The notes under the pieces: model-generated
The model's database searches: none
What the model saw: only the letters and a program-made list of their open reading frames with translations
What the model was told of the DNA's origin: nothing
Position numbers and translations under genes: made by a program
Source of the DNA: Eledone cirrhosa
Taxonomy: Eukaryota
Assembly (NCBI GenBank): GCA_964016885.1
Contig: OZ024740.1
Coordinates: 71,796,001-71,860,000 of the forward strand
Direction: 5' to 3'
Length of the DNA: 64,000 nt
In this document: piece by piece, positions 1,855 through 64,000 of the stretch
Layout of the letters: every line of letters begins with the position of its first letter
Position numbering within the stretch: the stretch's first letter is position 1

Positions 1855-2170
1855 TTCATTAGTTAAACAAAACAAGACCACAAATTTCACAAGGAAGACA
1901 TTATTAAAAGATTGTCAACATATTTAGTTTGATGTAAGGAATGTAGAGAATAATAATATTGATAATTTGATAATAATGCCCGTTTACAATTGTTTCGCTA
2001 CTCCGTATAATATTTCTGGATCAGATGACTATATATCATAATTGATCTGGTTCAGTTGAAAATAATTAGCATATTTAAAAAAACAGAGTGGCTCATTGGA
2101 ACTCAAAGGAATATAAATTAAAATAATGTTACATAATATAATGTTCCATATATTAGTTTTTACTATGGTG
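1855..2170 (-). mobile_element. Hammerhead-bearing Penelope-like mini-element, family H1 (degenerate core CCAATGA at 2093-2099)
   Basis: Inverted homologue at 39190-39516; motif core...GCCACTCTGT/ACGGAGTAGC GAAACAATTGTA AAC at 1982-2102; 3' end abuts TA array. Confidence 0.6.
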
Positions 2171-2271
2171 CCTTTGTTCAATCAGCTGTCAGCCATAATC
2201 ACCAATCTTTCCTCTCATATCCCCTCTACTATCTCAATCTCTCTCTTTAAGATTGGTTACTCTTGAACTGT

Positions 2272-3130
<859 letters not shown>

Positions 3131-3747
3131 CATCATCATCATCATCATCATCAGGTTTAGCGTCCGTGTTCCACGCTTGCATGGGTTTGGACGGGGGTTT
3201 TCCCACTTGAGGCAAGAGTGGTTGTCTTGCTCGCATAGGACTGTCTGGCGGGTTTTCTACAGTTGGATGCCCTTCCTAACACCAACCACATTTACAGTGT
3301 GGGGCTGGGAGGTTTTTACCGTGTTGCCTACACGGCCACATTACAGCGTGGACTGTCTGGCGGGTTTTCTACAGCTGGATGCCCTTCCTAACACCAACCA
3401 CATTTACAGTGTGGGGCTGGGAGGTTTTTACCGTGTTGCCTACACCAACCACATTTACAGCGTGGACTGTCTGGCGGGTTTTCTACAGCTGGATGCCCTT
3501 CCTAACACCAACCACATTTACAGTGTGGTGCTGGGAGGTTTTTACCGTGTTGCCTACACGGCCACATTTACAGCGTGGACTGTGTGTTTTTTTGTCGTGA
3601 CACCTACACGATCTCATTTGTTTCGGCCTGGATGTTGTGGGACCAACATAAATGTACATTGAAAGGGGCGGTGTGGATGGGGTGGAGGTGGTGGGACGGG
3701 GGGTTGTTTTGATAGAGATGCCTACTGACTGTAGTAGGTTTTTACTT
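3131..3747 (-). mobile_element. RTE-A 3' UTR-only insertion with internally triplicated module
   Basis: Matches RTE-A 3' UTR; the GGACTGTCTGGCGGGTTTTCTACAG...GGATGCCCTTCC unit occurs three times; (CAT)n at 3131. Confidence 0.85.
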
Positions 3748-4353: not shown

Positions 4354-6421
4354 TCTCCCCCATATCGACCCGATAGAGGGACCAGCAGTGTTAGTCGAGG
4401 GGAGTATAATAAGTAAGGCAATCAAGGATATGAAGGACTGGTAAGGCGGCTGGGCCTTCGGAAATAGTTGCTGAGATGCTGAAGGCATCTGGCACGGTGG
4501 GACACACCATGGTCACCCGCATAGTTAACCAAGTCGTACAGAATGGGGTTGTTCCGAAGGACTGGCATAGCAGCATCATCGTTAACTGTTATAAGGGTAA
4601 AGGAGACGCCCTAGATAGGAGTAACTATAGAGGCATTAAATTAATCGACCAGGTCATGAAGGTCACGGAAAAAGTAATAGCGCAACTAATCAGAGAGAGA
4701 ATTGATCTAGATGAAATGCAGTTCGGGTTTGTGTCAGGCAAAAGCACCACAGACGCTCTTTTCATAGTACGACAACTACAGGAGAAGTACCTAGCTAAAG
4801 GTAAACCCCTCTACTTAGCTTTTGTCGACCTGGAGAAAGCCTTCGACAGAGTCCCCCGCTCCATTATCTGGTGGGCTCTTAGAAAACTAGGCGTTGACGA
4901 ATGGCTTGTGAGGGCTATACAAGCCATGTATAAAGAAACAGTCAGCAAGGTTAGAATTAACAACGAATATAGTGAAGAGTTTAGCGTAAAAGTTGGCGTC
5001 CATCAGGGCTCTGTTCTCAGCCCCCTACTATTTATTATTGCCCTTCAGGCTATAACAGAGGAGTTCAAGACAGGCTGCCCATGGGAACTCCTATACGCAG
5101 ACGACCTGACACTCATAGCGGAATCAATGGCCGAGCTAGAGAAGAAATTCCAAACATGGAAGCACGGCCTAGAGTCAAAAGGACTTAAAATTAACCTGGC
5201 TAAGACCAAAGTTCTAGTTTGTAGGAAAGAAAACAAGGCGGCGGTCCCTTCTGGGAAATGGTCGTGCTCGGTATGTAGGAAAGGCGTAGGTAGAAACTCC
5301 ATCTTATGTCCTAAATGCAAAGTATGGGTGCATAATAAAAGATGTAGTGGGATCACAGGTAAGCTAACTAAGAACATAGATTTTACATGTGGCCGGTGTT
5401 CTGGTGCAATAAGTAGCAGCAAGTGCCCACAAAATACTAGCTCTTTCAATTGCGCAGAGGGTTCTATAGAAATAGTGGACAGCTTCCGTTACCTGGGCGA
5501 TAAAATCAGCAGTGGGGGAGGGTGCTCTGAAAGTACTGTAGCTAGAGTCAGAACTGGTTGGAAAAAGTTCAGAGAGCTTATACCACTATTAGCTGCTAAA
5601 GGGTTCTCCCTAAAAATGAAAGGCAGGTTGTACGATGCCTGCATACGAACAGCAATGTTGCATGGTAGTGAGACCTGGGCATTGTGTGCAGAGGATATAC
5701 GCAGACTAGAGCGGAACGAAGCTTGCATGCTCCGCTGGATGTGTAACAGTAATATACGTGAACGGCAAAGCATAAACGAACTAAGGAAAAAATTAGAGAT
5801 AAGAGGGATCAGATGTTGTTTACTCGAGAGAAGGCTGCGTTGGTATGGACACGTGATGCGCATGAAAGTCGATAGCTGTATTACAAAGTGCAGGGCAATA
5901 AAGATAGACGGTAGCCACGGAATAGGCAGACCTAGAAAAACATGGGATGAGCTGATAAACTCCGACCTCACACACTTACACCTCTCCAAGACAATGTCAC
6001 TGGACCGAGACCTTTGGCGGTACTCAGTAACAGAGAAGACCCGCCTTGCCAGTAGGCATCTCTAACAAACTACACCCCGTCCCGCCACCACCCCCACCCC
6101 ATCCACACCACCCCGTTCTATGTAAAGTTATGTTGGTGCCGCGCCATCCAGGCCGAAACAAATGAGATCGTGTAGGTGTCACGACAAAAAAACACACAGT
6201 CCACGCTGTAATGTGGCCGTGTAGGCAACACGGTAAAAACCTCCCAGACCCACACTGTAAATGTGGTTGGTGTTAGGAAGGGCATCCAACTGTAGAAAAC
6301 CTGCCAGACAGTCCTATGCGAGCAAGACAATCACTCTTGCCTCAAGTGGGACTACCCCCGTCCAAACCCATGCAAGCGTGGAACACGGACGTTAAACGTT
6401 GATGATGATGATGATGATGAT
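4354..6421 (+). mobile_element. RTE-A LINE, 5'-truncated (RT ORF remnant 4476-6065)
   Basis: RT motifs [29 protein letters not shown]; PHD-type finger; 3' UTR and (GAT)n. Confidence 0.95.
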
Positions 6422-6528
6422 ATATATATATATATGTATATATATATATGTATATATATATATGTATATATATGTATATATATATATGTATATATATATA
6501 TGTATATATGTATATATATATATGTATA

Positions 6529-7976
6529 TCATCATCATCATCATCAATGTTTAACGTCCGTGTTCCACGCTTGCATGGGTTTGGACGGGGGTAGTCCCAC
6601 TTGAGGCAAGAGTGATTGTCTTGCTCGCATAGGACTGTCTGGCAGGTTTTCTACAGTTGGATGCCCTTCCTAACACCAACCACATTTACAGTGTGGGTCT
6701 GGGAGGTTTTTACCGTGTTGCCTACACGGCCACATTACAGCGTGGACTGTGTGTTTTTTTGTCGTGACACCTACACGATCTCATTTGTTTCGGCCTGGAT
6801 GGCGCGGCACCAACATAACTTTACATAGAACGGGGTGGTGTGGATGGGGTGGGGGTGGTGGCGGGACGGGGTGTATTTTGTTAGAGATGCCTACTGGCAA
6901 GGCGGGTCTTCTCTGTTACTGAGTACCGCCAAAGGTCTCGGTCCAGTGACATTGTCTTGGAGAGGTGTAAGTGTGTGAGGTCGGAGTTTATCAGCTCATC
7001 CCATGTTTTTCTAGGTCTGCCTATTCCGTGGCTACCGTCTATCTTTATTGCCCTGCACTTTGTTATACAGCTATCGACTTTCATGCGCATCACGTGTCCA
7101 TACCAACGCAGCCTTCTCTCGAGTAAACAACATCTGATCCCTCTTATCTCTAATTTTTTCCTTAGTTCGTTTATGCTTTGCCGTTCACGTATATTACTGT
7201 TACACATCCAGCGGAGCATGCAAGCTTCATTCCTCTCTAGTCTGCGTATATCCTCTGCACACAATGCCCAGGTCTCACTACCATGCAACATTGCTGTTCG
7301 TATGCAGGCATCGTACAACCTGCCTTTCATTTTTAGGGAGAACCCTTTAGCAGCTAATAGTGGTATAAGCTCTCTGAACTTTTTCCAACCAGTTCTGACT
7401 CTAGCTACAGTACTTTCAGAGCACCCTCCCCCACTGCTGATTTTATCGCCCAGGTAACGGAAGCTGTCCACTATTTCTATAGAACCCTCTGCGCAATTGA
7501 AAGAGCTAGTATTTTGTGGGCACTTGCTGCTACTTATTGCACCAGAACACCGGCCACATGTAAAATCTATGTTCTTAGTTAGCTTACCTGTGATCCCACT
7601 ACATCTTTTATGCACCCATACTTTGCATTTAGGACATAAAATGGAGTTTCTACCTACGCCTTTCCTACACACCGAGCACGACCATTTCCCAGAAGGGACT
7701 GCCGCCTTGTTTTCTTTCCTACAAACTAGAACTTTGGTCTTAGCCAGGTTAATTTAGAGTCCTTTTGACTCTAGGCCGTGCTTCCATGTTTGGAATTTCT
7801 TCTCTAGCTCAGCCATTGATTCCGCTATGAGTGTCAGGTCGTCTGCGTATAGGAGGTCCCATGGGCAGCCTGTCTTGAACTCCTCTGTTATAGCCTGAAG
7901 GGCAATAATAAATAGTAGGGGGCTGAGAACAGAGCCCTGATGGACGCCAACTTTTACGCTAAACTCTTCACTATAT
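6529..7976 (-). mobile_element. RTE-A LINE, 5'-truncated, inverted twin of 4967-6421 (nonsense codon at 7754)
   Basis: ORFs 7754-8236 and 6881-7672 encode the RT C-terminal half; shares the private 28-bp deletion giving the TRLASRHL end. Confidence 0.95.
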
Positions 7977-12159: not shown

Positions 12160-15100
12160 TTTCCTTCTTCCTTCTTCGAAGGCACGGGGCGGTCAAACGC
12201 CTAACACTCACAGCCATCATGTGGCCCCCTCCCCTCGCTCTCTCTCACTCTCTCTCTCTCTCTATAAATATATGATAGGAATACCCAACACCCCTCCCTC
12301 CCACCCCCACGCACCACCATTGCTATTACGTGGACCAATCATAAAACAGAGCCCCCACGCATCACCAGTATTATTACGCGGACCAATCAGAAACCAGAGG
12401 CCTATACTATCGCTTGCCTGGTTGCCTTTCGATATACGATATATGATGGATGGATGGACTGCGGAATCCTGGAGAGTGGAGGTGAGAGAGAGAAAAATCT
12501 GGACGCTCAGCGACAATGCCAAAGATAAAGACAAATTCACCTCTTGGACGAGAATGCGAGCACTCCTCATTGTTTCGACCGCGGACGGCTAACATAACCC
12601 CATCGCCCCCCGCCCCTCACCGCCCCCAACCCCCAAACGCAATCCAAAACTTCAGAGTTGGTACCATAAATGTAGGCACCCTAAAGGGTCGCGCTAACGA
12701 GGTTGTAGAAATGCTTGAACGTAAGGAGGTCGATGTTTGTTGTATTCAAGAGACCAGGTGGAGGGGTGGGTCTGCTAGGTTCATTGAGGGTAAAAAACGA
12801 TGTTATAAGCTTTTCTGGGTGGGAAACGACGATGGGCTGGGTGGAGTAGGAATCATGGTAGCAGAAAAGTGGGCAGATAAGATAATAGACGTAAATAGAG
12901 TGAACGACAGAATAATTAAAATACGACTTGTCCTCAATAGAACTACGGTGACAGTAATATCTGCGTACGCACCCCAATCCGGACTGCCCGGCACTATAAA
13001 AGACAGATTCTATGAGACACTGATGCTAACTACCTCCCAAATACCCGACAGTGACTATATAATTATCGCAGGCGACCTAAATGGTCACGTTGGACAACAT
13101 CGTGACGGCTACGACGAAATCCATGGAGGCTATGGGTTTGGTACTAGAAATGAGGAAGGCTCCAGAATCCTGGAATTCTGTGATGCAAATAACCTAACTA
13201 TCTGTAACACTAACTTCAAAAAACGTGACAATCACCTGATCACCTATAGATCCGGGGAACACACAAGCCAGGTAGATTATATCCTTACCAGAAGACGTGA
13301 CAGAGTGTCTGTTGTTAACACTAAATCCCTCCCCCATGAAGAATGCACCTCCCAACATAGACTGATAATTAGCGACCTCATAGTCAGGACGAGACGTACT
13401 CGACAACAGAAGAGGACTATCCTCAGGAGGAAAATATGGAAGCTAAAGGACCCCACAGCCAGGAATAAATTTCAAAGCATATTACTTGATGCTTTCGACA
13501 GTAAGGAAGAACATTTAGAGTCGGACAATATAGAGGGAGAGTGGGAATTTCTGAAAGCAAAGCTGCTGTTGGCGACAGACGAGGTCTGTGGCTGGAGCAG
13601 GCCTGTAGGCAGGAGGAGAGTAACATGGTGGTGGAACAGTAAGGTGGAGGGGTCAATTAAGGCCAAAAAGCAGGCTTGGAAAGTATGGCGGGATGGGGGA
13701 AGTAGAGAGGACTATCAAGTGGCCAGGAGGGAAGCTAGGAGACAAGTGTACTTAGCAAGAAGGGAAGCTGAGGAAAGAAAGTTCAAGCATGTTCTACAAC
13801 GCGATGACCAAAAACGTGAGGTGTTCAGGATTGCTAGGCAATGCGTCAAGGAAAACCGTGATATTGTCGGGGAGAAGTGTGTACTAAACGACGATGGCAC
13901 ACTTGCCATCACCGACGCTGATAAGAAGGTAGCTTGGAAGTGTCACTATGAAAGGCTACTAAATGAGGAGAATAATTGGGAGAAAGGCAGTCTCCCCCAT
14001 ATCGACCCAATAGAGGGACCAGCAGTGTTAGTCGAGGGGAGTATAATAAGTAAGGCAATCAAGGATATGAAGACGGGTAAGGCGGCTGGGCCTTCGGAAA
14101 TAGTTGCTGAGATGCTGAAGGCATCTGGCACGGTGGGACACACCATGGTCACCCGCATAGTTAACCAAGTCGTACAGAATGGGGTTGTTCCGAAGGACTG
14201 GCATAGCAGCATCATCGTTAACTGTTATAAGGGTAAAGGAGACGCCCTAGATAGGAGTAACTATAGAGGCATTAAATTAATCGACCAGGTCATGAAGGTC
14301 ACGGAAAAAGTAATAGCGCAACTAATCAGAGAGAGAATTGACCTAGATGAAATGCAGTTCGGGTTTGTGTCAGGCAAAAGTACCACAGACGCTCTTTTCA
14401 TAGTACGACAACTACAGGAGAAGTACCTAGCTAAAGGTAAACCCCTCTACTTAGCTTTTGTCGACTTGGAGAAAGCCTTCGACAGAGTCCCCCGCTCCAT
14501 TATCTGGTGGGCTCTTAGAAAACTAGGCGTTGACGAATGGCTTGTGAGGGCTATACAAGCCATGTATAAAGAAACAGTCAGCAAGGTTAGAATTAACAAC
14601 GAATATAGTGAAGAGTTTAGCGTAAAAGTTGGCGTCCATCAGGGCTCTGTTCTCAGCCCACTACTATTTATTATTGCCCTTCAGGCTATAACAGAGGAGT
14701 TCAAGACAGGCTGCCCATGGGTACGCAGACGACCTGACACTCATAGCGGAATCAATGGCCGAGCTAGAGAAGAAATTCCAAACATGGAAGCACGGCCTAG
14801 AGTCAAAAGGACTTAAAATTAACCTGGCTAAGACCAAAGTACTAGTTTGTAGGAAAGAAAACAAGGCGGCGGTCCCTTCTGGGAAATGGTCGTGCTCGGT
14901 GTGTAGGAAAGGCGTAGGTAGAAACTCCATTTTATGTCCTAAATGCAAAGTATGGGTGCATAAAAGATGTAGTGGGATCACAGGTAAGCTAACTAAGAAC
15001 ATAGATTTTACATGTGGCCGGTGCTCTGGTGCAATAAGTAGCAGCAAGTGCCCACAAACTACTAGCTCTTTCAATTGCGCAGAGGGTTCTATAGAAATAG

Positions 15101-16078
15101 TGGACAGCTTCCGTTACCTGGGCGATAAAATCAGCAGTGGGGGAGGGTGCTCTGAAAGTACTGTAGCTAGAGTCAGAACTGGTTGGAAAAAGTTCAGAGA
15201 GCTTATACCACTATTAGCTGCTAAAGGGTTCTCACTAAAAATGAAAGGCAGGTTGTACGATGCCTGCATACGAACAGCAATGCTGCATGGCAGTGAGACC
15301 TGGGCATTGTGTGCAGAGGATATACGCAGACTAGAGAGGAACGAAGCTTGCATGCTCCGCTGGATGTGTAACAGTAATATACGTGAACGGCAAAGCATAA
15401 ACGAACTAAGGAAAAAATTAGAGATAAGAGGGATCAGATGTTGTTTACTCGAGAGAAGGCTACGTTGGTATGGACACGTGATGCGCATGAAAGTCGATAG
15501 CTGTATAACAAAGTGCAGGGCAATAAAGATAGACGGTAGTCACGGAATAGGCAGACCTAGAAAAACCTGGGACGAGCTGATAAACTCCGACATCACACAC
15601 TTACACCTCTCCAAGACAATGTCACTGGACCGAGACCTTTGGCGGTACTCAGTAACAGAGAAGACCCGCCTTACCTAAATATATAGTAAAACCTACTCCA
15701 GCCAGTAGGCATCTCTAACAAAATACACCCCGTCCCACCACCACCACCCCCACCCGATCCACACCACCCCGTTCTATGTAAAGTTATGTTGGTGCCGCGC
15801 CATCGAGGCCGAAACAAATGAGATCGTGTAGGTGTCACGACAAAAAAAAACACACAGTCCACGCTGTAATGTGGCCGTGTAGGCAACACGGTAAAAACCT
15901 CCCAGACCCACACTGTAAATGTGGTTGGTGTTAGGAAGGGCATCCAACTGTAGAAAACCTGCCAGACAGTCCTATGCGAGCAAGACAATCACTCTTGCCT
16001 CAAGTGGGACTACCCCCGTCCAAACCCATGCAAGCGTGGAACACGGACGTTAAACGTTGATGATGATGATGATGATGA
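12160..16078 (+). mobile_element. Near-full-length RTE-A LINE (5' boundary uncertain, may extend to ~11715)
   Basis: Complete APE-RT coding region, ~400-nt 3' UTR, (GAT)n tail then TA array. Confidence 0.92.
12516..15678 (+). pseudogene. RTE-A polyprotein (APE endonuclease, RT, PHD finger) frameshifted by an 8-bp deletion at ~14720
   Basis: APE motifs TINVGTL, CIQETRW, SAYAPQ, GDLNGH, DYIL, SQH; CCATGGG^TACGCAGAC lacks AACTCCTA present in other copies; ORFs 12516-14816 and 14755-15678. Confidence 0.92.
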
Positions 16079-23792: not shown

Positions 23793-23874
23793 CATATATA
23801 TACATATATATATGTATATATATACATATATATATACATATATACATATATATACATATATATATATATACATA

Positions 23875-25390
23875 TCATCATCATCATCATTTTACGTCCG
23901 CTTTTCCCTGCTTGCAAGGGTGGGACGGGTCTTATTCAGCACAGCATCTCTCCACTCGTCGCGGTCCCTCGTCATCTCCACCGTGAGCTTCAATGATCTG
24001 AGGTCTGTTCTAACCACCTCCGCCCATGTTTTTGGTGGTCTACCTCTACCACGTCTTCCTTCAACTGGCATTTCCTGGCACTTCTTCACCCATCGGTCAT
24101 CCTCCATGCGCATCACATGTCCATACCACCTCAGTCTCCTCTCCCGTACACTACATTCTATCCCTCTCAGACACAGTTTCTCTCTCAACACATTTATGCT
24201 GGGTCGTTCACGCACATTTACACTGCACATCCAACGGAGCATGCTTGCCTCATTTCTCTCCAGCCGTCGCATATCTTCTGCGGTTGCTGCCCATGTCTCA
24301 CTACCATGCAGCATCGCGCTCCTCACACAGGCATCATACAACCGGCCTTTCGTACGCAGGGAGAAACCCTTCTTCGTCAACAGAGGAAGCAGCTCCCTAA
24401 ACTTCTTCCAACCAGTCCTTATTCTAGATACTATGGCCTCGGAACACCCTCCTCCCATGCTAATCTGATCTCCTAGGTACCGGAAGCTATCCACCACTTC
24501 TATAGCGCCCTCTCGCATTTGAAAAATGTGTCTATCAGTGCGACTTCTACTGTCTAATTTCCCTGTACATCTACTGCATACATATTTCTCCCTACCTGTT
24601 AGTTTGCCTGCTATCCCGCTACATCTCTTGTGTACCCAGGACCTACATTGTGTGCATTTTATAGAATTTATGCCAGTTCCTTTTCTGCATATCGAACATG
24701 GCCATTTCCCTGACGGAATCAGGGTTTTGTCCTCTTTTCTACTCATCAACACTTTTGTCTTAGCTAGATTTACTCCCAGTCCTCTTGCTTCCAACTGCTG
24801 TTTCCATAGCCGGAATTTATTCTCTAGCTCCTCTACTGATTCTGCCATAAGAGCCAGATCGTCAGCATAGAGAAGTTCCCATGGACAGCCAGTCTTAAAC
24901 TCCTCTGTTATGGCTTGGAGGACTATAATGAACAAGAGCGGGCTGAGGACCGAACCCTGATGTACTCCTACTTGTATCTGGAATTCCTCACTAAACTCCA
25001 TTCCTACCCTGACTTTACTGAGAGTACCTCTGTACAAAGTTTGCACTGTCCTCACAAGACATTCCTCAACACCCAGCTTCCTTAGAGACCACCAGATGAC
25101 AGATCGGGGTACCCTATCAAAGGCCTTCTCTAGGTCAACAAAGGCTAAGTATAGTGGCTTATTCTTCTCTAAGAACCTCTCTTGCATTTGTCTCACCAAG
25201 AAGAGGGCATCTGTTGTACTCTTCCCAGGCATAAAACCAAACTGCATCTCATCTAGTTTGACCCTTTCTCTAATTAGTTGTGCTAAAATCCTTTCTGCCA
25301 CTTTCATAACCTGATCTATCAGTTTTATACCCCTATAATTGCTCCTCTCCAAAGCATCCCCTTTACCTTTGTAGCAATTTATGAGAATAC
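23875..25390 (-). mobile_element. RTE-B LINE, 5'-truncated, RT frame open
   Basis: Near-identical to 57914-59435; ORF ends [12 protein letters not shown] directly before (GAT)n. Confidence 0.95.
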
Positions 25391-40227: not shown

Positions 40228-40298
40228 GATGTGTTGGTGTAATGGTAGCACAGTGGTCGCGATAACCAAAGATGTGGGTTCGACTCCCATGTATGTCA
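40228..40298 (+). pseudogene. tRNA-like sequence (pseudo-tRNA or SINE head)
   Basis: A box TGGTGTAATGG, D stem GTGT/GCAC, T arm ATGTGGGTTCGACTCCCAT; G.U-rich acceptor stem and non-canonical anticodon loop. Confidence 0.55.
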
Positions 40299-56473: not shown

Positions 56474-56569
56474 CAAAGGTGTGGTAAGATACCAGGTGGA
56501 CCATAAAGCACCAGAGTACTCGATACTTAAGGCCAGAGCTCAGCAGTCGAGGTCCTGACTCTTTTCTTA
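56472..56569. mobile_element. Tiny rearranged H2-family fragment
   Basis: Homologous to 8740-8805, followed by an inverted GAGCTCAGCAGTCGAGGTC stem III piece; TA-flanked. Confidence 0.6.
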
Positions 56570-56579
56570 TATATATATA

Positions 56580-59414
56580 TGGATCAATAAGACAATAGAG
56601 GTAGTTCGAGTTAGTAATCGAATAATTAAGCTTAGATTAGTTGTAGGTAGGAGACTACTGACAATCATCTCGGTCTATGCTCCCCAAGCAGGCCTAGGCA
56701 AAGATGAGAAAGACTGCTTTTATGAGCAACTTTTGCAAACAACCACAATGACAGAGGACGGAGACATCGTTATGCTAGCAGGAGACTTCAATGGTCATGT
56801 TGGACAGCTCCAGGATGGTTACACTGGGGTACATGGTGGGTACGGTTACGGTTCAAGAAATGAAGAAGGAGTGAGACTTCTTGAATTTTGTGATGCAAGT
56901 ACATTGACTATTTGCAACACAAACTTCCAGAAACCTGCCAATCACCTAATAACCTACAAATCTGGTGAGCACATAAGCCAGATTGACTTCCTGCTAGTTA
57001 GGCAGCGGGACAGGCAGATAGTGTCTAATACCAAGGCATACCCTGGGGAAGAATGTACCCCACAGCATAGGTTAGTTGTTAGTGATATCTCAGTAAGCAA
57101 GAGATGGAATGAGACATATAGGAAGGTGTGGAGAAGAAAGGTCTGGAAGCTAAAAGACCTTTCACTAAAATTCAAATTTAGGAAAGCCCTTCAAGATGTA
57201 TATGACGAAAAAGAAGACAATTTAGAGACGTATGACATAGATAATAACTGGAAGTTCTTACGTGACAACTTGCTGCAGACTACTGATGAAACCTGTGGCT
57301 GGAGCAGAGCTCCAACCAGACAGAGAGTGACCTGGTGGTGGAACAGCACAGTAGATAAGGCTATTAGAGACAAAAGACTAGCATGGAAGGCTTGGAAAAA
57401 GGGTGGGAGTAGGGAAGAATATACAGCCACTAAGAGAGAAGCTAGACGTCAGGTGTACTTAGCACGCAGGGAGGCAGGGAGTAGGAGGTTTGCCAATGTT
57501 CTGCGACGGGAAGATCAGAGGCGTGCGGTGTTCCACATTGCAAGGCAGTGTGTCAATGCAAATCAGGATGTTGTTGGTGATAAATGTGTCCGGGATGATG
57601 CCGGTGTACTTAGTGTCACGAATGACCAGAAAAAGGAGGCCTGGAAATGTCATTATGAGAGACTGATGAATGTGGAGAACGAATGGGAGAGAGAGAAATT
57701 ACCCTTGGTAGATCCGACAGAGGGACCAGCTATTGAGATTGACGAATATAGGGTCCAAGAGGCGATTAGGGAAATGAAAAATGGTAAGGCGGCCGGACCA
57801 TCGGGAATAGTTGCTGAGATGCTGAAGGCATCAGGGGACGTAGGCACTAAACTGGTTGCACGCATCATCAATCAGGCTATATATGGTGGTGTCATACCCA
57901 AAGACTGGTGCAGCAGTATTCTCATAAATTGCTACAAAGGTAAAGGGGATGCTTTGGAGAGGAGCAATTATAGGGGTATAAAACTGATAGATCAGGTTAT
58001 GAAAGTGGCAGAAAGGATTTTAGCACAACTAATTAGAGAAAGGGTCAAACTAGATGAGATGCAGTTTGGTTTTGTGCCTGGGAAGAGTACAACAGATGCC
58101 CTCTTCTTGGTGAGACAATTGCAAGAGAGGTTCTTAGAGAAGAATAAGCCACTATACTTAGCCTTTGTTGACCTAGAGAAGGCCTTTGATAGGGTACCCC
58201 GATCTGTCATCTGGTGGTCCCTAAGGAAGCTGGGTGTTGAGGAATGGCTTGTGAGGACAGTGCAAACTTTGTACAGAGGTACTCTCAGTAAAGTCAGGGT
58301 AGGAATGGAGTTTAGTGAGGAATTCCAGATACAAGTAGGAGTACATCAGGGTTCGGTCCTCAGCCCGCTCTTGTTCATTATAGTCCTCCAAGCCATAACA
58401 GAGGAGTTTAAGACTGGCTGTCCATGGGAACTTCTCTATGCTGACGATCTGGCTCTTATGGCAGAATCAGTAGAGGAGCTAGAGAATAAATTCCGGCTAT
58501 GGAAACAGCAGTTGGAAGCAAGAGGACTGAGAGTAAATCTAGCTAAGACAAAAGTGTTGATGAGTAGAAAAGAGGACAAAACCCTGATTCCGTCAGGGAA
58601 ATGGCCATGTTCGATATGCAGAAAAGGAACTGGCATAAATTCTATAAAATGCACACAATGCAGGTCCTGGGTACACAAGAGATGTAGCGGGATAGCAGGC
58701 AAACTAACAGGTAGGGAGAAATATGTATGCAGTAGATGTACAGGGAAATTAGACAGTAGAAGTCGCACTGATAGACACATTTTTCAAATGCGAGAGGGCG
58801 CTATAGAAGTGGTGGATAGCTTCCGGTACCTAGGAGATCAGATTAGCATGGGAGGAGGGTGTTCCGAGGCCATAGTATCTAGAATAAGGACGGGTTGGAA
58901 GAAGTTTAGGGAGCTGCTTCCTCTGTTGACGAAGAAGGGTTTCTCCCTGCGTACGAAAGGCCGGTTGTATGATGCCTGTGTGAGGAGCGCGATACTGCAT
59001 GGTAGTGAGACATGGGCAGCAACCGCAGAGGATATGCAACGGCTGGAGAGAAATGAGGCAAGCATGCTCCGTTGGATGTGCAGTGTAAATGTGCGTGAAC
59101 GACCCAGCATAAATGTGTTGAGAGAGAAACTGTGTCCGAGAGGGATAGAATGTAGTGTACGGGAGAGGAGACTGAGGTGGTATGGACATGTGATGCGCAT
59201 GGAGGATGACCGATGGGTGAAGAAGTGCCAGAAAATGCCAGTTGAAGGAAGACGTGGTAGAGGTAGACCACGAAAAACATGGGCAGAGGTGGTGAGAACA
59301 GACCTCAGATCATTGAAGCTCACGGTGGAGATGACGAGGGACCGTGACGAGTGGAGAGATGCTGTGCTGAATAAGACCCGTCCCACCCTTGCAAGCAGGG
59401 AAAAGCGGACGTAA
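56580..59414 (+). CDS. Uninterrupted partial RTE-B polyprotein frame (APE, RT, PHD finger); lacks N-terminus
   Basis: Frame open from WINKTIEVVRVSNRII through SVYAPQ, GDFNGH and YADD to REKRT*. Confidence 0.85.
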   Translation, partial: WINKTIEVVRVSNRIIKLRLVVGRRLLTIISVYAPQAGLGKDEKDCFYEQLLQTTTMTEDGDIVMLAGDFNGHVGQLQDGYTGVHGGYGYGSRNEEGVRLLEFCDASTLTICNTNFQKPANHLITYKSGEHISQIDFLLVRQRDRQIVSNTKAYPGEECTPQHRLVVSDISVSKRWNETYRKVWRRKVWKLKDLSLKFKFRKALQDVYDEKEDNLETYDIDNNWKFLRDNLLQTTDETCGWSRAPTRQRVTWWWNSTVDKAIRDKRLAWKAWKKGGSREEYTATKREARRQVYLARREAGSRRFANVLRREDQRRAVFHIARQCVNANQDVVGDKCVRDDAGVLSVTNDQKKEAWKCHYERLMNVENEWEREKLPLVDPTEGPAIEIDEYRVQEAIREMKNGKAAGPSGIVAEMLKASGDVGTKLVARIINQAIYGGVIPKDWCSSILINCYKGKGDALERSNYRGIKLIDQVMKVAERILAQLIRERVKLDEMQFGFVPGKSTTDALFLVRQLQERFLEKNKPLYLAFVDLEKAFDRVPRSVIWWSLRKLGVEEWLVRTVQTLYRGTLSKVRVGMEFSEEFQIQVGVHQGSVLSPLLFIIVLQAITEEFKTGCPWELLYADDLALMAESVEELENKFRLWKQQLEARGLRVNLAKTKVLMSRKEDKTLIPSGKWPCSICRKGTGINSIKCTQCRSWVHKRCSGIAGKLTGREKYVCSRCTGKLDSRSRTDRHIFQMREGAIEVVDSFRYLGDQISMGGGCSEAIVSRIRTGWKKFRELLPLLTKKGFSLRTKGRLYDACVRSAILHGSETWAATAEDMQRLERNEASMLRWMCSVNVRERPSINVLREKLCPRGIECSVRERRLRWYGHVMRMEDDRWVKKCQKMPVEGRRGRGRPRKTWAEVVRTDLRSLKLTVEMTRDRDEWRDAVLNKTRPTLASREKRT

Positions 59415-59435
59415 AATGATGATGATGATGATGAT
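56580..59435 (+). mobile_element. Young RTE-B LINE, 5'-truncated within the endonuclease
   Basis: Starts at a TA tract; (GAT)n tail directly after the stop codon. Confidence 0.95.
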
Positions 59436-59442
59436 ATATACA

Positions 59443-60603: not shown

Positions 60604-61104
60604 TAGGCATACGTTAAGACGGGCGTTCCGGAAAGTGAAAGTAAATTTTTTGACAACAGTGAATTTGTTTTTTTGTTTTTTTTTAACAATGAAAGTTACG
60701 ATACACACGCAATTGTATGGATTTCTTAATATATATATATGTGTGGGTGTGTATATGTGTGTATATATGTGTGTACACTGTGAATTTGTTTGTTTATTTA
60801 CAACAGGTCTCTATAGTGATATGGCGTTAATTAGTATTGCGTGTGTGATTATTTTTTCTTTAGATAGACGTTAAACGATGATGATGACACAAACACATAT
60901 ATATATATACAAACACACACATATATATACATACAGACACACATATATATACACACATATACACACCCACACATATATATATATTAAGAAATCCATACAA
61001 TTGCGTGTGTATCGTAACTTTCATTGTAAAAACAAACAAACAAATTCACTGTTGTCAAAAAATTTACTTTCACTTTCCCGAACGCCCGTCTTAACGTATG
61101 CCTA
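60604..61104. repeat. Inverted repeat or MITE-like structure, ~165-bp arms, starting 80 bp upstream of the putative COMMD3 ATG
   Basis: TAGGCATACGTTAAGACGGGCG... versus ...CGCCCGTCTTAACGTATGCCTA; spacer holds a ~20-nt RTE tail. Confidence 0.85.
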
Positions 61105-61132
61105 TATATATATAATGAAATATATATATATA

Positions 61133-61429
61133 TTAAAATACAAATATTAATAAAATAGATTTTCTTTTGATCAATTAAATTTTATTATACATATTTCGGA
61201 GGTACAACAGTACGTCCTCACCAGACAAAATATAATGATACATGACATACCCTGAGATGTTAAATGGTTAAGATTTAATTTGATTAAATCTTAACCATTT
61301 AACATCTCAGGGTATGTCATGTATCATTATATTTTGTCTGATGAGGACGTACTGTTGTACCTCCGAAATATGTATAATAAAATTTAAATGATCAAAAGAA
61401 CATCTATTTTATTAATATTTGTATTTTAA
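61133..61429. mobile_element. Head-to-head palindrome (147-bp arms, 3-nt loop) of hammerhead mini-element H6
   Basis: Arms differ at only a few positions; TA tracts on both sides. Confidence 0.85.
61331..61383 (+). ncRNA. Minimal type I hammerhead ribozyme motif, predicted cleavage after AUA at 61376
   Basis: Stem I ATTTTGT/ATAAAAT; core CTGATGA; stem II GGAcGTAC-TGTT-GTACcTCC; GAAA; stem III ATA-TG-TAT; mirror at 61179-61231 (-) has CTGGTGA. Confidence 0.78.
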
Positions 61430-61454
61430 TATATATATATATATATATATATAC

Positions 61455-62532: not shown

Positions 62533-62551
62533 TGTGTATATATATATATAT

Positions 62552-64000
62552 ATCATCATCATCATCATCATCATTTTACGTCCGCTTTTCCCTGCTTGCA
62601 AGGGTGGGACGGGTCTTATTCAGCACAGCATCTCTCCACTCGTCACGGTCCCTCGTCATCTCCACCGTGAGCTTCAATGATCTGAGGTCTGTTCTCACCA
62701 CCTCCGCCCATGTTTTTTGTGGTCTACCTCTACCACGTCTTCCTTCAACTGGCAATTCCTGGCACTTCTTCACCCATCGGTCATCCTCCATGCACATCAC
62801 ATGTCCATACCACCTCAGTCTCCTCTCCCGTACACTACATTCTATCCCTCTCAGACATAGTTTCTCTCTCAACACATTTATGCTGGGTCGTTCACGCACA
62901 TTTACACTGCACATCCAACGGAGCATGCTTGCCTCATTTCTCTCCAGCCGTCGCATATCCTCTGCAGTTGCTGCCCATGTCTCACTACCATGCAGCATCG
63001 CGCTCCTCACACAGGCATCATACAACCAGCCTTTCGTACGCAGGGAGAAACCCTTCTTCGTCAACAGAGGAAGCAGCTCCCTAAACTTCTTCCAACCCGT
63101 CCTTATTCTAGATACTATGGCCTTGGAACACCCTCCTCCCTTGCTAATCTGATCTCCTAGGTACCGGAAGCTATCCACCACTTCTATAGCGCCCTCCTGC
63201 ATTTGATAAATGTGTCTATCAATGCGACTTCTACTGTCTAATTTCCCTGTACATCTACTGCATACATATTTCTCCCTACCTGTTAGTTTGCCTGCTATCC
63301 CGCTACATCTCTTGTGTACCCAGGATCTGCATTGTGTGCATTTTATAGAATTTATGCCAGTTCCTTTTCTGCATATCGAACATGGCCATTTCCCTGATGG
63401 AATCAGGGTTTTGTCCTCTTTTCTACTCATCAACACTTTTGTCTTAGCTAGATTCACTCTCAGTCCTCTTGCTTCCAACTGCTGTTTCCATAGCCAGAAT
63501 TTATTCTCCAGCTCCTCTACTGATTCTGCTATAAGAACCAGATCGTCAGCATAGAGAAGTTCCCATGGACAGTCAGTCTTAAACTCCTCTGTTATGGCTT
63601 GGAGGACTATAATGAACAAGAGCGGGCTGAGGACCGAACCCTGATGTACTCCTACTTGTATCTGGAATTCCTCACTAAACTCCATTCCTACCCTGACTTT
63701 ACTGAGAGTACCTCTGTACAAAGTTTGCACTGTCCTCACAAGCCATTCCTCAACACCTAGCTTCCTTAGAGACCACCAGATGACAGATCGGGGTACCATA
63801 TCAAAGGCCTTCTCTAGGTCAACAAAGGCTAAGTATAGTGGCTTATTCTTCTCTAAGAACCTCTCTTGCAATTGTCTCACCAAGAAGAGGGCATCTGTTT
63901 TACTCTTCCCAGGCACAAAACCCAACTGCATCTCCTCTAGTTTGACCCTTTCTCTAATTAGTTGTGCTAAAATCCTTTCTGCCACTTTCATAACCTGATC
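62552..64000 (-). mobile_element. RTE-B LINE continuing beyond the window
   Basis: ORF 62576-63991 with RT and PHD finger; (CAT)n at 62552. Confidence 0.95.

What the first reader, a model, noticed from the sequence alone, without database searches (positions are those of the whole stretch)
61133..61429. H6: a 297-bp hairpin made of two hammerhead units joined head to head
Seen: 147-bp arms and a 3-nt loop. The + arm has a textbook CTGATGA...GAAA minimal hammerhead with stem I extendable by ATCATT/AATGAT; one of the few arm differences hits the core of the - arm (CTGGTGA). It would be annotated as a MITE by structure alone. Inference: some TA-flanked hairpin elements in this genome are retro-derived PLE termini, and may be mobile as palindromes.
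Basis: partly seen in the sequence, partly recalled or inferred. Interest (0 to 1): 0.74.

Follow-up and report, generated by a model that had tools for sequence, protein, structure and literature searches.

The report
Mirror-joined ends of a Penelope retrotransposon
This DNA hairpin is two short copies of the ribozyme-bearing end of a Penelope-type jumping gene, joined head to head in a TA repeat; hundreds of sister hairpins with differing joints show it is not a mobile unit but likely a by-product of both cut DNA strands starting to copy the element's RNA.

Summary
The hairpin is real: 147-nt arms, 3 differences, hammerhead core at 61338, cleavage position 61376. Each arm is the terminal repeat (pLTR) of an RT + GIY-YIG Penelope-like retrotransposon with Hydra-clade motifs, inserted in (TA)n. 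It is not a MITE or a mobile palindrome. The genome holds at least 257 such head-to-head hairpins; 80 examined had 67 different joints, and the window's joint is unique. Of 71 classifiable hairpins, 69 pair a short-ended arm with a tailed arm. Both arms share subfamily alleles. Inner ends pile up at one base, an initiator-like TCACT 31 nt behind TATAAA. This likely reflects twin priming: each cut target strand primes at one of two sites in the RNA's 5' pLTR, copies to the RNA start, and the two cDNAs are end-joined. The window copy is a rare short/short exception. The core mutation in the left arm looks like neutral decay, and the + hammerhead is predicted to be masked inside the hairpin. Inverted pLTRs with a one-sided tail are published. 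The scan noted the twin-priming reading before, for Penelope-type hairpins elsewhere in this genome. No RNA data were available.

The parts
61120..61132 (.). Left (TA)n target flank
   Evidence: 88 of 92 family copies have (TA)3 at the 3' end
61133..61279 (-). Inverted 5'-truncated pLTR copy, element positions -55 to +91 (0 = hammerhead C3), short (S) outer end
61186..61224 (-). Hammerhead core to cleavage base of the inverted arm, with A6G (CTGGTGA), predicted inactive
   Evidence: that A6 is needed is established hammerhead knowledge, recalled
61279..61280 (.). Blunt head-to-head joint (-55 | -58), unique in the genome
   Evidence: overlap 0; 1 exact match
61280..61429 (+). Forward 5'-truncated pLTR copy, positions -58 to +91, short (S) outer end; includes the apparent TTG loop
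61323..61392 (+). Type I hammerhead: stem I 61323-61337/61377-61392, CUGAUGA 61338-61344, stem II 61345-61364, GAAA 61365-61368, short self-complementary stem III/loop 61368-61375, cleavage position after A61376
   Evidence: activity untested
61430..61453 (.). Right (TA)12 target flank

Best explanation
The hairpin is two 5'-truncated copies of the terminal repeat of a Hydra-type Penelope-like retrotransposon joined head to head in a TA repeat, likely made in one insertion event by twin priming and predicted to be a dead end. Shown: parent element with RT and C-terminal GIY-YIG; two fixed outer ends (S at +91, T at about +190); a sharp inner limit at -64; variable joints; arms that share alleles. 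Inferred steps: (1) a promoter in the pLTR (TATAAA at -95, TCACT with A at -64) starts the RNA at -64; (2) the endonuclease cuts both strands of (TA)n; (3) each 3' end primes inside the uncut RNA's 5' pLTR, normally one at S and one at T, using the ATAT/ATATATA match to the target, each site 8 nt in front of a small RCTC...GAGY hairpin; (4) both cDNAs run to or near the RNA 5' end; (5) their ends are joined, bluntly, through microhomology or with short inserts. The window copy is the rare S/S form (both primed at S, or the tail was lost later). In a read-through transcript the hammerhead would be buried in double-stranded RNA.
For: Parent: the arm continues into a 3,864-bp unit with RT and GIY-YIG frames; ESM Atlas hits 0.92-0.96, several clusters with RVT_1; weak Pfam GIY-YIG, E 0.012. 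Ends: of 92 copies anchored on an exact hammerhead match, 62 end at S, 25 at T, 5 elsewhere. Among those with two classifiable ends the script counts 51 S/T, 2 S/S (window, L127), 1 T/T, and two more are S/T by eye. Among 80 joint-anchored hairpins: 69 S/T, 1 S/S, 1 T/T, 9 unclassified; 35.5 S/T expected if ends were independent, p about 1e-18. Arms agree at three subfamily sites in 69 of 69, 71 of 72 and 72 of 72 hairpins. 33 of 160 arms end exactly at -64 and only 6 go further. TATAAA lies 31 nt upstream of -64, and this is the only TATAAA+Inr pair in the 4.3-kb element, seen in both pLTRs. Hairpins closing in a 0-60-nt window at the start site number 86+171, against 7+11 in an equal window at the cleavage site, so the template was likely uncut. 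In vitro, Poseidon_Ac cuts and extends both strands, starts at two internal sites that define the tail, and does not need hammerhead cleavage (PMC11167929).
Against: The window copy itself is S/S, the form that twin priming at S+T does not predict (1 of 71 in the joint-anchored set), so its own route is not settled. Allele agreement between arms could also come from time-separated subfamilies or gene conversion; 18 rare variants are mirrored against 171 single. The start site is inferred from DNA only. An extra G before -64 (cap copy) is seen in 13 of 48 non-templated cases, but only about 5 cannot be explained by the partner arm, which is inconclusive. Poseidon_Ac starts without homology to the target, whereas these ends overlap (TA)n. 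D. virilis Penelope has a TATA-less internal promoter (PMC2377424). RT identity rests on motifs and the Atlas: Pfam and PDB gave no RT hit.
Confidence: 0.75

Rival explanations
1. Fold-back or self-priming: one cDNA (or an antisense template, as proposed for Adineta Penelope) folds on itself and is copied back, giving a symmetric hairpin.
For: The window copy is symmetric (S/S) and its arms share alleles. Proposed in PMC3846280 to explain head-to-head palindromes. One T/T case (L054) has mirrored host flanks, that is a fold-back duplication.
Against: Copy-back predicts equal outer ends, yet 69 of 71 are unequal. The window joint is blunt, with no templated pairing to prime from, and its host flanks are not mirrored.
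Confidence: 0.14
2. An ordinary S/T hairpin that later lost its 97-nt tail by deletion between the ATAT at S and the flanking (TA)n, or by conversion between arms.
For: S/T is the normal product; S is followed by TAT, a microhomology with (TA)n; tails damaged after insertion are seen (L204, L232).
Against: No tail remnant is recognisable in the left flank. This is a variant of the best explanation, not an alternative origin.
Confidence: 0.2
3. A palindromic unit that moves as a whole, as a retro-mobilised hairpin or a MITE-like element.
For: Some joints recur: 7 loci share one and 5 of 80 share another. A tailed arm keeps the first small hairpin and could in principle be re-primed at S.
Against: Window joint unique; 67 joints in 80 hairpins. 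Recurring joints switch polarity (1 of 7; 1 of 5) and span subfamilies. No parent S/T hairpin with the window's joint and alleles was found; the 1-mismatch locus carries another allele at +46.
Confidence: 0.04
4. MITE of a DNA transposon, or a fold-back assembly artefact.
For: Long terminal inverted repeats flanked by TA.
Against: The arm is collinear with an RT + GIY-YIG element; many copies have no inverted arm; arms differ at 3 sites, flanks are not mirrored, and there are hundreds of asymmetric sisters. No transposase search was run.
Confidence: 0.01

Closest known systems
Hydra clade of C-terminal EN+ Penelope-like elements (Craig et al. 2021, PMC8557442), e.g. Hydra-1_Obim, Penelope-13_HM
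   Same: RW-type and DKT motifs, CxCx5C linker, no CCHH, CxxC and CxH beside conserved E and N, (TA)n target, hammerhead near the 3' end; Penelope-13_HM is listed with a 5'-truncated inverted copy.
   Different: Unit 3.86 kb against generally <3 kb (long 3' non-coding part); RWR instead of RWK; hammerhead sequence unlike that of Hydra-1_Obim and with U15.2-A16.2; no tree was built.
Canonical PLE insertion structure: partial tandem pLTR, adjacent inverted 5'-truncated copy, one-sided tail (PMC8557442, PMC3846280)
   Same: Head-to-head inverted copy, tail at one end only, variable upstream pLTR; TATA + TCACT in the pLTR as in Pen2a_Av.
   Different: Tail about 97-100 nt instead of 30-40; most copies are ORF-less stubs made of two pLTR ends; the data favour twin priming on a sense RNA over the proposed antisense self-priming.
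Poseidon_Ac in vitro mechanism (Frangieh et al. 2024, PMC11167929)
   Same: Two internal start sites that define the tail, both strands cut and extended, AT-rich target, hammerhead cleavage not needed.
   Different: Sites here are about 99 nt apart, lie in the 5' UTR and overlap (TA)n by 4-7 nt; the parts of that paper I read do not link the two sites to inverted copies.
Type I minimal/variant hammerheads of PLE pLTRs and non-LTR retrozymes (PMC4209133; bioRxiv 10.64898/2026.07.22.740005)
   Same: Type I topology, weak self-complementary stem III suited to dimers; one locus (L141) is a tandem array of four 176-bp hammerhead units.
   Different: In the window the two motifs lie on opposite strands, so one transcript carries only one sense hammerhead, paired with its antisense; not a retrozyme arrangement.

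Membership tests
EN+ Penelope-like element | Single ORF with RT and C-terminal GIY-YIG endonuclease | tested here: met
   Frames in natural copies L142-L144, L147, L048; Atlas; Pfam GIY-YIG weak. All copies examined are frameshifted or truncated.
EN+ Penelope-like element | pLTR partial tandem, adjacent inverted 5'-truncated copy, optional tail | tested here: met
EN+ Penelope-like element | Hammerhead motif in the pLTR | tested here: met
   By hand and folding; no Rfam hit
Hydra clade | DKG changed to DKT; RWK motif | tested here: met
   SDKT and RLRWRA (RWR, conservative variant) in L143 and L144
Hydra clade | CxCx5C linker; CCHH absent; CxxC and CxH around conserved E and N | tested here: met
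   CNCRNKTDC; YKCTVKTDHNTYNYIG without CxxC; CALCTME; INKKSELFSSCLH
Hydra clade | Insertion in (TA)n | tested here: met
   88 of 92
Hydra clade | Generally short (<3 kb) | tested here: not met
   Unit 3,864 bp; the paper gives this as a tendency, not a strict rule
Hydra clade | RT phylogeny groups with Hydra families | not tested
MITE (DNA transposon) | Uniform unit with fixed centre and length | tested here: not met
   67 joints in 80; unequal ends in 69 of 71
MITE (DNA transposon) | TIRs shared with a transposase-coding partner | tested here: not met
   The arm's longer copies code RT + GIY-YIG; no separate transposase search was run
Non-LTR retrozyme | Tandem direct repeats each with a hammerhead | tested here: not met
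   Window copy is inverted; met only at L141
Active hammerhead ribozyme | Self-cleavage at the NUH site | not testable with these tools
   Predicted pairing of stems I and II is 0.000 in the whole hairpin; in the 147-nt arm alone stem II is 0.97 but the stem I pairs tested are 0.0

The most novel reading that the evidence does not exclude
Penelope head-to-head repeats and the one-sided tail have one cause: a dimeric RT-endonuclease primes both target strands on a single sense RNA at two hairpin-marked sites, and the short products are run-off copies that map the element's transcription start. This family gives exact coordinates for a test (start -64, sites +91 and +190, RCTC...GAGY hairpins 8 nt downstream) and contradicts the published antisense self-priming proposal.
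Probability: 0.55. Interest if true: 0.65.

Novelty: new member of a known kind. Interest (0 to 1): 0.42.

Why it matters
As an object the hairpin is ordinary for a Penelope-like element. The value lies in the family statistics. Craig et al. call the formation of tandem and inverted PLE structures undefined; here the near-obligate short+tailed pairing, the shared alleles and the sharp inner limit at a TATA/Inr site give a specific, testable model. In practice, such ORF-less stubs look like MITEs and can be misannotated as DNA transposons, and hundreds of them could be sources of double-stranded RNA (untested).

Tried and rejected
Rfam scans found no hammerhead, only composition-driven hits. 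Pfam and PDB gave no RT hit for the fragments. RNA evidence: no RNA holder listed. Logan contigs of four runs covered the arms as collapsed repeats and did not span the locus, so the unique joint could not be confirmed independently. Selection on the hammerhead core of inserted copies: not seen (core 20 of 1580 against non-core 237 of 12667 substitutions, p = 0.11). Hammerhead-cut RNA as main template: rejected (18 hairpins near the cut, no pile at +39 by eye). RT stalling at the -70..-51 hairpin as cause of the inner limit: less likely, since the peak is at -64, past the loop, not at the 3' base. Cap-derived G: inconclusive. Collision of the T-primed enzyme with the S complex: 4 of 42 tailed arms stop at +92..+100 and 12 at +121..+156, suggestive only. 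A first mapping was spoiled by TA repeats in the reference and redone. The large inverted repeat around the hairpin (57990-59440 / 62549-64000) is a pair of unrelated LINE copies. Literature searches listed no paper whose title or abstract start points to twin priming in Penelope-like elements or to hammerheads in MITE-like palindromes; most listed papers were not opened, subscription papers are not covered, and bioRxiv supplements were closed.

Full report
Observation. The hairpin is there as described: arms 61133-61279 and 61283-61429, 147 nt each, 3 differences, centre TTG, z = -42 against shuffles, flanked by TA repeats. The + arm holds a type I hammerhead motif with C3 at 61338 and the cleavage position at 61376; the - arm has A6G. 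Rfam does not detect it. Positions below count from C3 = 0. The A at 61388 is not the family base (T in 141 of 146 arms). A core hit among 3 differences has probability about 0.23, and cores of inserted copies are not significantly more conserved than their flanks.

Parent element. A search of the own genome with the right arm gave 373 candidates, 40 scored, 30 fetched. Walking upstream led to copies with RT and C-terminal GIY-YIG frames. Locus L143 holds pLTR, ORF, about 1.3 kb of non-coding 3' sequence and a second pLTR, unit 3,864 bp. All ORFs seen are broken. The Atlas returns eukaryotic clusters at 0.92-0.96, several with RVT_1; Pfam gives only a weak GIY-YIG hit and PDB nothing. The motifs SDKT, RLRWRA, CNCRNKTDC, no CxxC inside GIY-YIG, CALCTME and INKK...CLH match the description of the Hydra clade (PMC8557442 section 11). 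The unit is longer than usual, no tree was built, and the hammerhead differs from that of Hydra-1_Obim (File S2). The host was not identified.

Copies anchored on the hammerhead. An exact 51-nt pattern has 115 matches. The 100 listed make 92 loci including the window, all mapped. 3' ends: 62 short (S, +91), 25 tailed (T, about +190), 5 other; 88 of 92 abut (TA)3; 5' ends: 24 at or beyond -74, 52 between -73 and -48, 16 closer. With two classifiable ends the script finds 51 S/T, 2 S/S (window, L127) and 1 T/T (L054, whose host flanks are mirrored too); L101 and L130 are S/T by eye. Both ends overlap the target repeat (TTTTAA|TAT and CTTTAA|TATATA). In 12 copies the T end runs on into the 5' UTR and ORF start, so S and T are internal sites of the upstream pLTR.

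Is the palindrome mobile? The window's joint has 1 exact match, 1 at one mismatch (another allele at +46) and 7 loci sharing a different joint at two mismatches. Those 7 differ in subfamily alleles, and in one the tail is on the other arm. Head-to-head hairpins with exact anchors number 86 and 171. I fetched 80: the first 40 listed in each search, leaving out the window and four loci already held (L078 S/unclassified, L151 and L152 S/T, L054 T/T). They show 67 distinct joints; repeated joints mostly occur in both polarities or in different subfamilies. Ends: 69 S/T, 1 S/S, 1 T/T, 9 unclassified, against 35.5 S/T expected by independence; adding the five left out gives 71, 2, 2 and 10. So the hairpins arise anew at each insertion, and the window's symmetric form is the exception.

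Mechanism. The arms of one hairpin agree at three subfamily sites in 69 of 69, 71 of 72 and 72 of 72 cases, as expected from one template, though conversion or the timing of subfamilies could contribute. Inner ends: 33 of 160 at exactly -64, 6 beyond. Position -64 is the A of TCACT, 31 nt behind TATAAA, the only such pair in the element; a TATA + TCACT pLTR promoter was proposed for Pen2a_Av (PMC3846280), while D. virilis Penelope is TATA-less (PMC2377424). I infer that the RNA starts at -64 and that the stubs are run-off copies. Only 18 hairpins close near the cleavage site in an equally wide window, so uncut RNA is the likely template, as in vitro for Poseidon_Ac, which also cuts and extends both strands from two sites (PMC11167929). 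Joints are overlapping by 1-7 nt in 31 of 80, blunt in 6, and otherwise carry inserts or mutations. A lead from earlier scan notes holds here: 8 nt behind each site starts a small hairpin, ACTC...GAGT (base intact in 66 of 88 tails) and GCTC...GAGC (a compensatory A-T to T-A change in 3 of 12 copies, probably one event). Their role is untested. Copy-back or antisense self-priming predicts equal outer ends and fails for the family; for the window copy it stays possible, although the joint is blunt and the flanks are not mirrored.

Ribozyme. The stem III/loop AUAUGUAU is weakly self-complementary (-2.2 kcal/mol), in line with dimer-dependent PLE hammerheads of low activity (PMC4209133). In the full hairpin its stems have predicted probability 0.000, and even in the isolated arm stem I is outcompeted; only the 73-nt motif folds with stems I and II. 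Cleavage at 61376 in a read-through transcript is therefore unlikely. No RNA run was available.

Hammerhead numbering, the need for A6 and the usual TATA spacing near -30 are recalled.

Verdict. Real feature, known kind: a stub insertion of a Hydra-type Penelope-like family, not a mobile palindrome. Identity as a PLE by-product is about 0.95 likely; the twin-priming route about 0.75 for the family and less certain for this S/S copy. Interest 0.42.

Noticed in passing
L141 (G000:C27 near 7,481,063): Tandem array of four hammerhead units at 176-bp spacing (-55 to about +116), ending in a tail: a retrozyme-like array derived directly from this pLTR.
   Followed up: partly
window 50271, - strand: A second hammerhead-like motif (TTTTGT CTGAAGA ... 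TGAAATATATAT) with flanks resembling this family's but a different stem II; possibly another Penelope-like family.
   Followed up: no
window 60604-61104: Another TA-flanked hairpin element directly beside the finding, without a CTGANGA core on either strand; the same terminus abuts a family copy at L006.
   Followed up: partly
window 4434-7976, 12486-15678, 23867-25390, 56559-59440, 62549-64000 and others: Many LINE copies with RT frames, some in inverted pairs (4967-7976 is a 3-kb palindrome at 98%), set in TA-rich microsatellite.
   Followed up: no
L054 / L024 (G000:C1 near 272,787,800): Tailed/tailed hairpin embedded in a 1.2-kb inverted duplication that includes host flank, probably a secondary fold-back.
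   Followed up: partly
L030 (oriented 601-1240, -), L038 and L147 (oriented 2140-3324): Fragments of other Penelope-like families with the same CxCx5C/GIY-YIG layout lie next to this family's insertions.
   Followed up: no
L003 and L018: The same 3-bp deletion in stem I of the inverted arm in two subfamilies, probably recurrent slippage.
   Followed up: no
window 40228-40298: Rfam tRNA match above the gathering score, possibly a SINE head.
   Followed up: no
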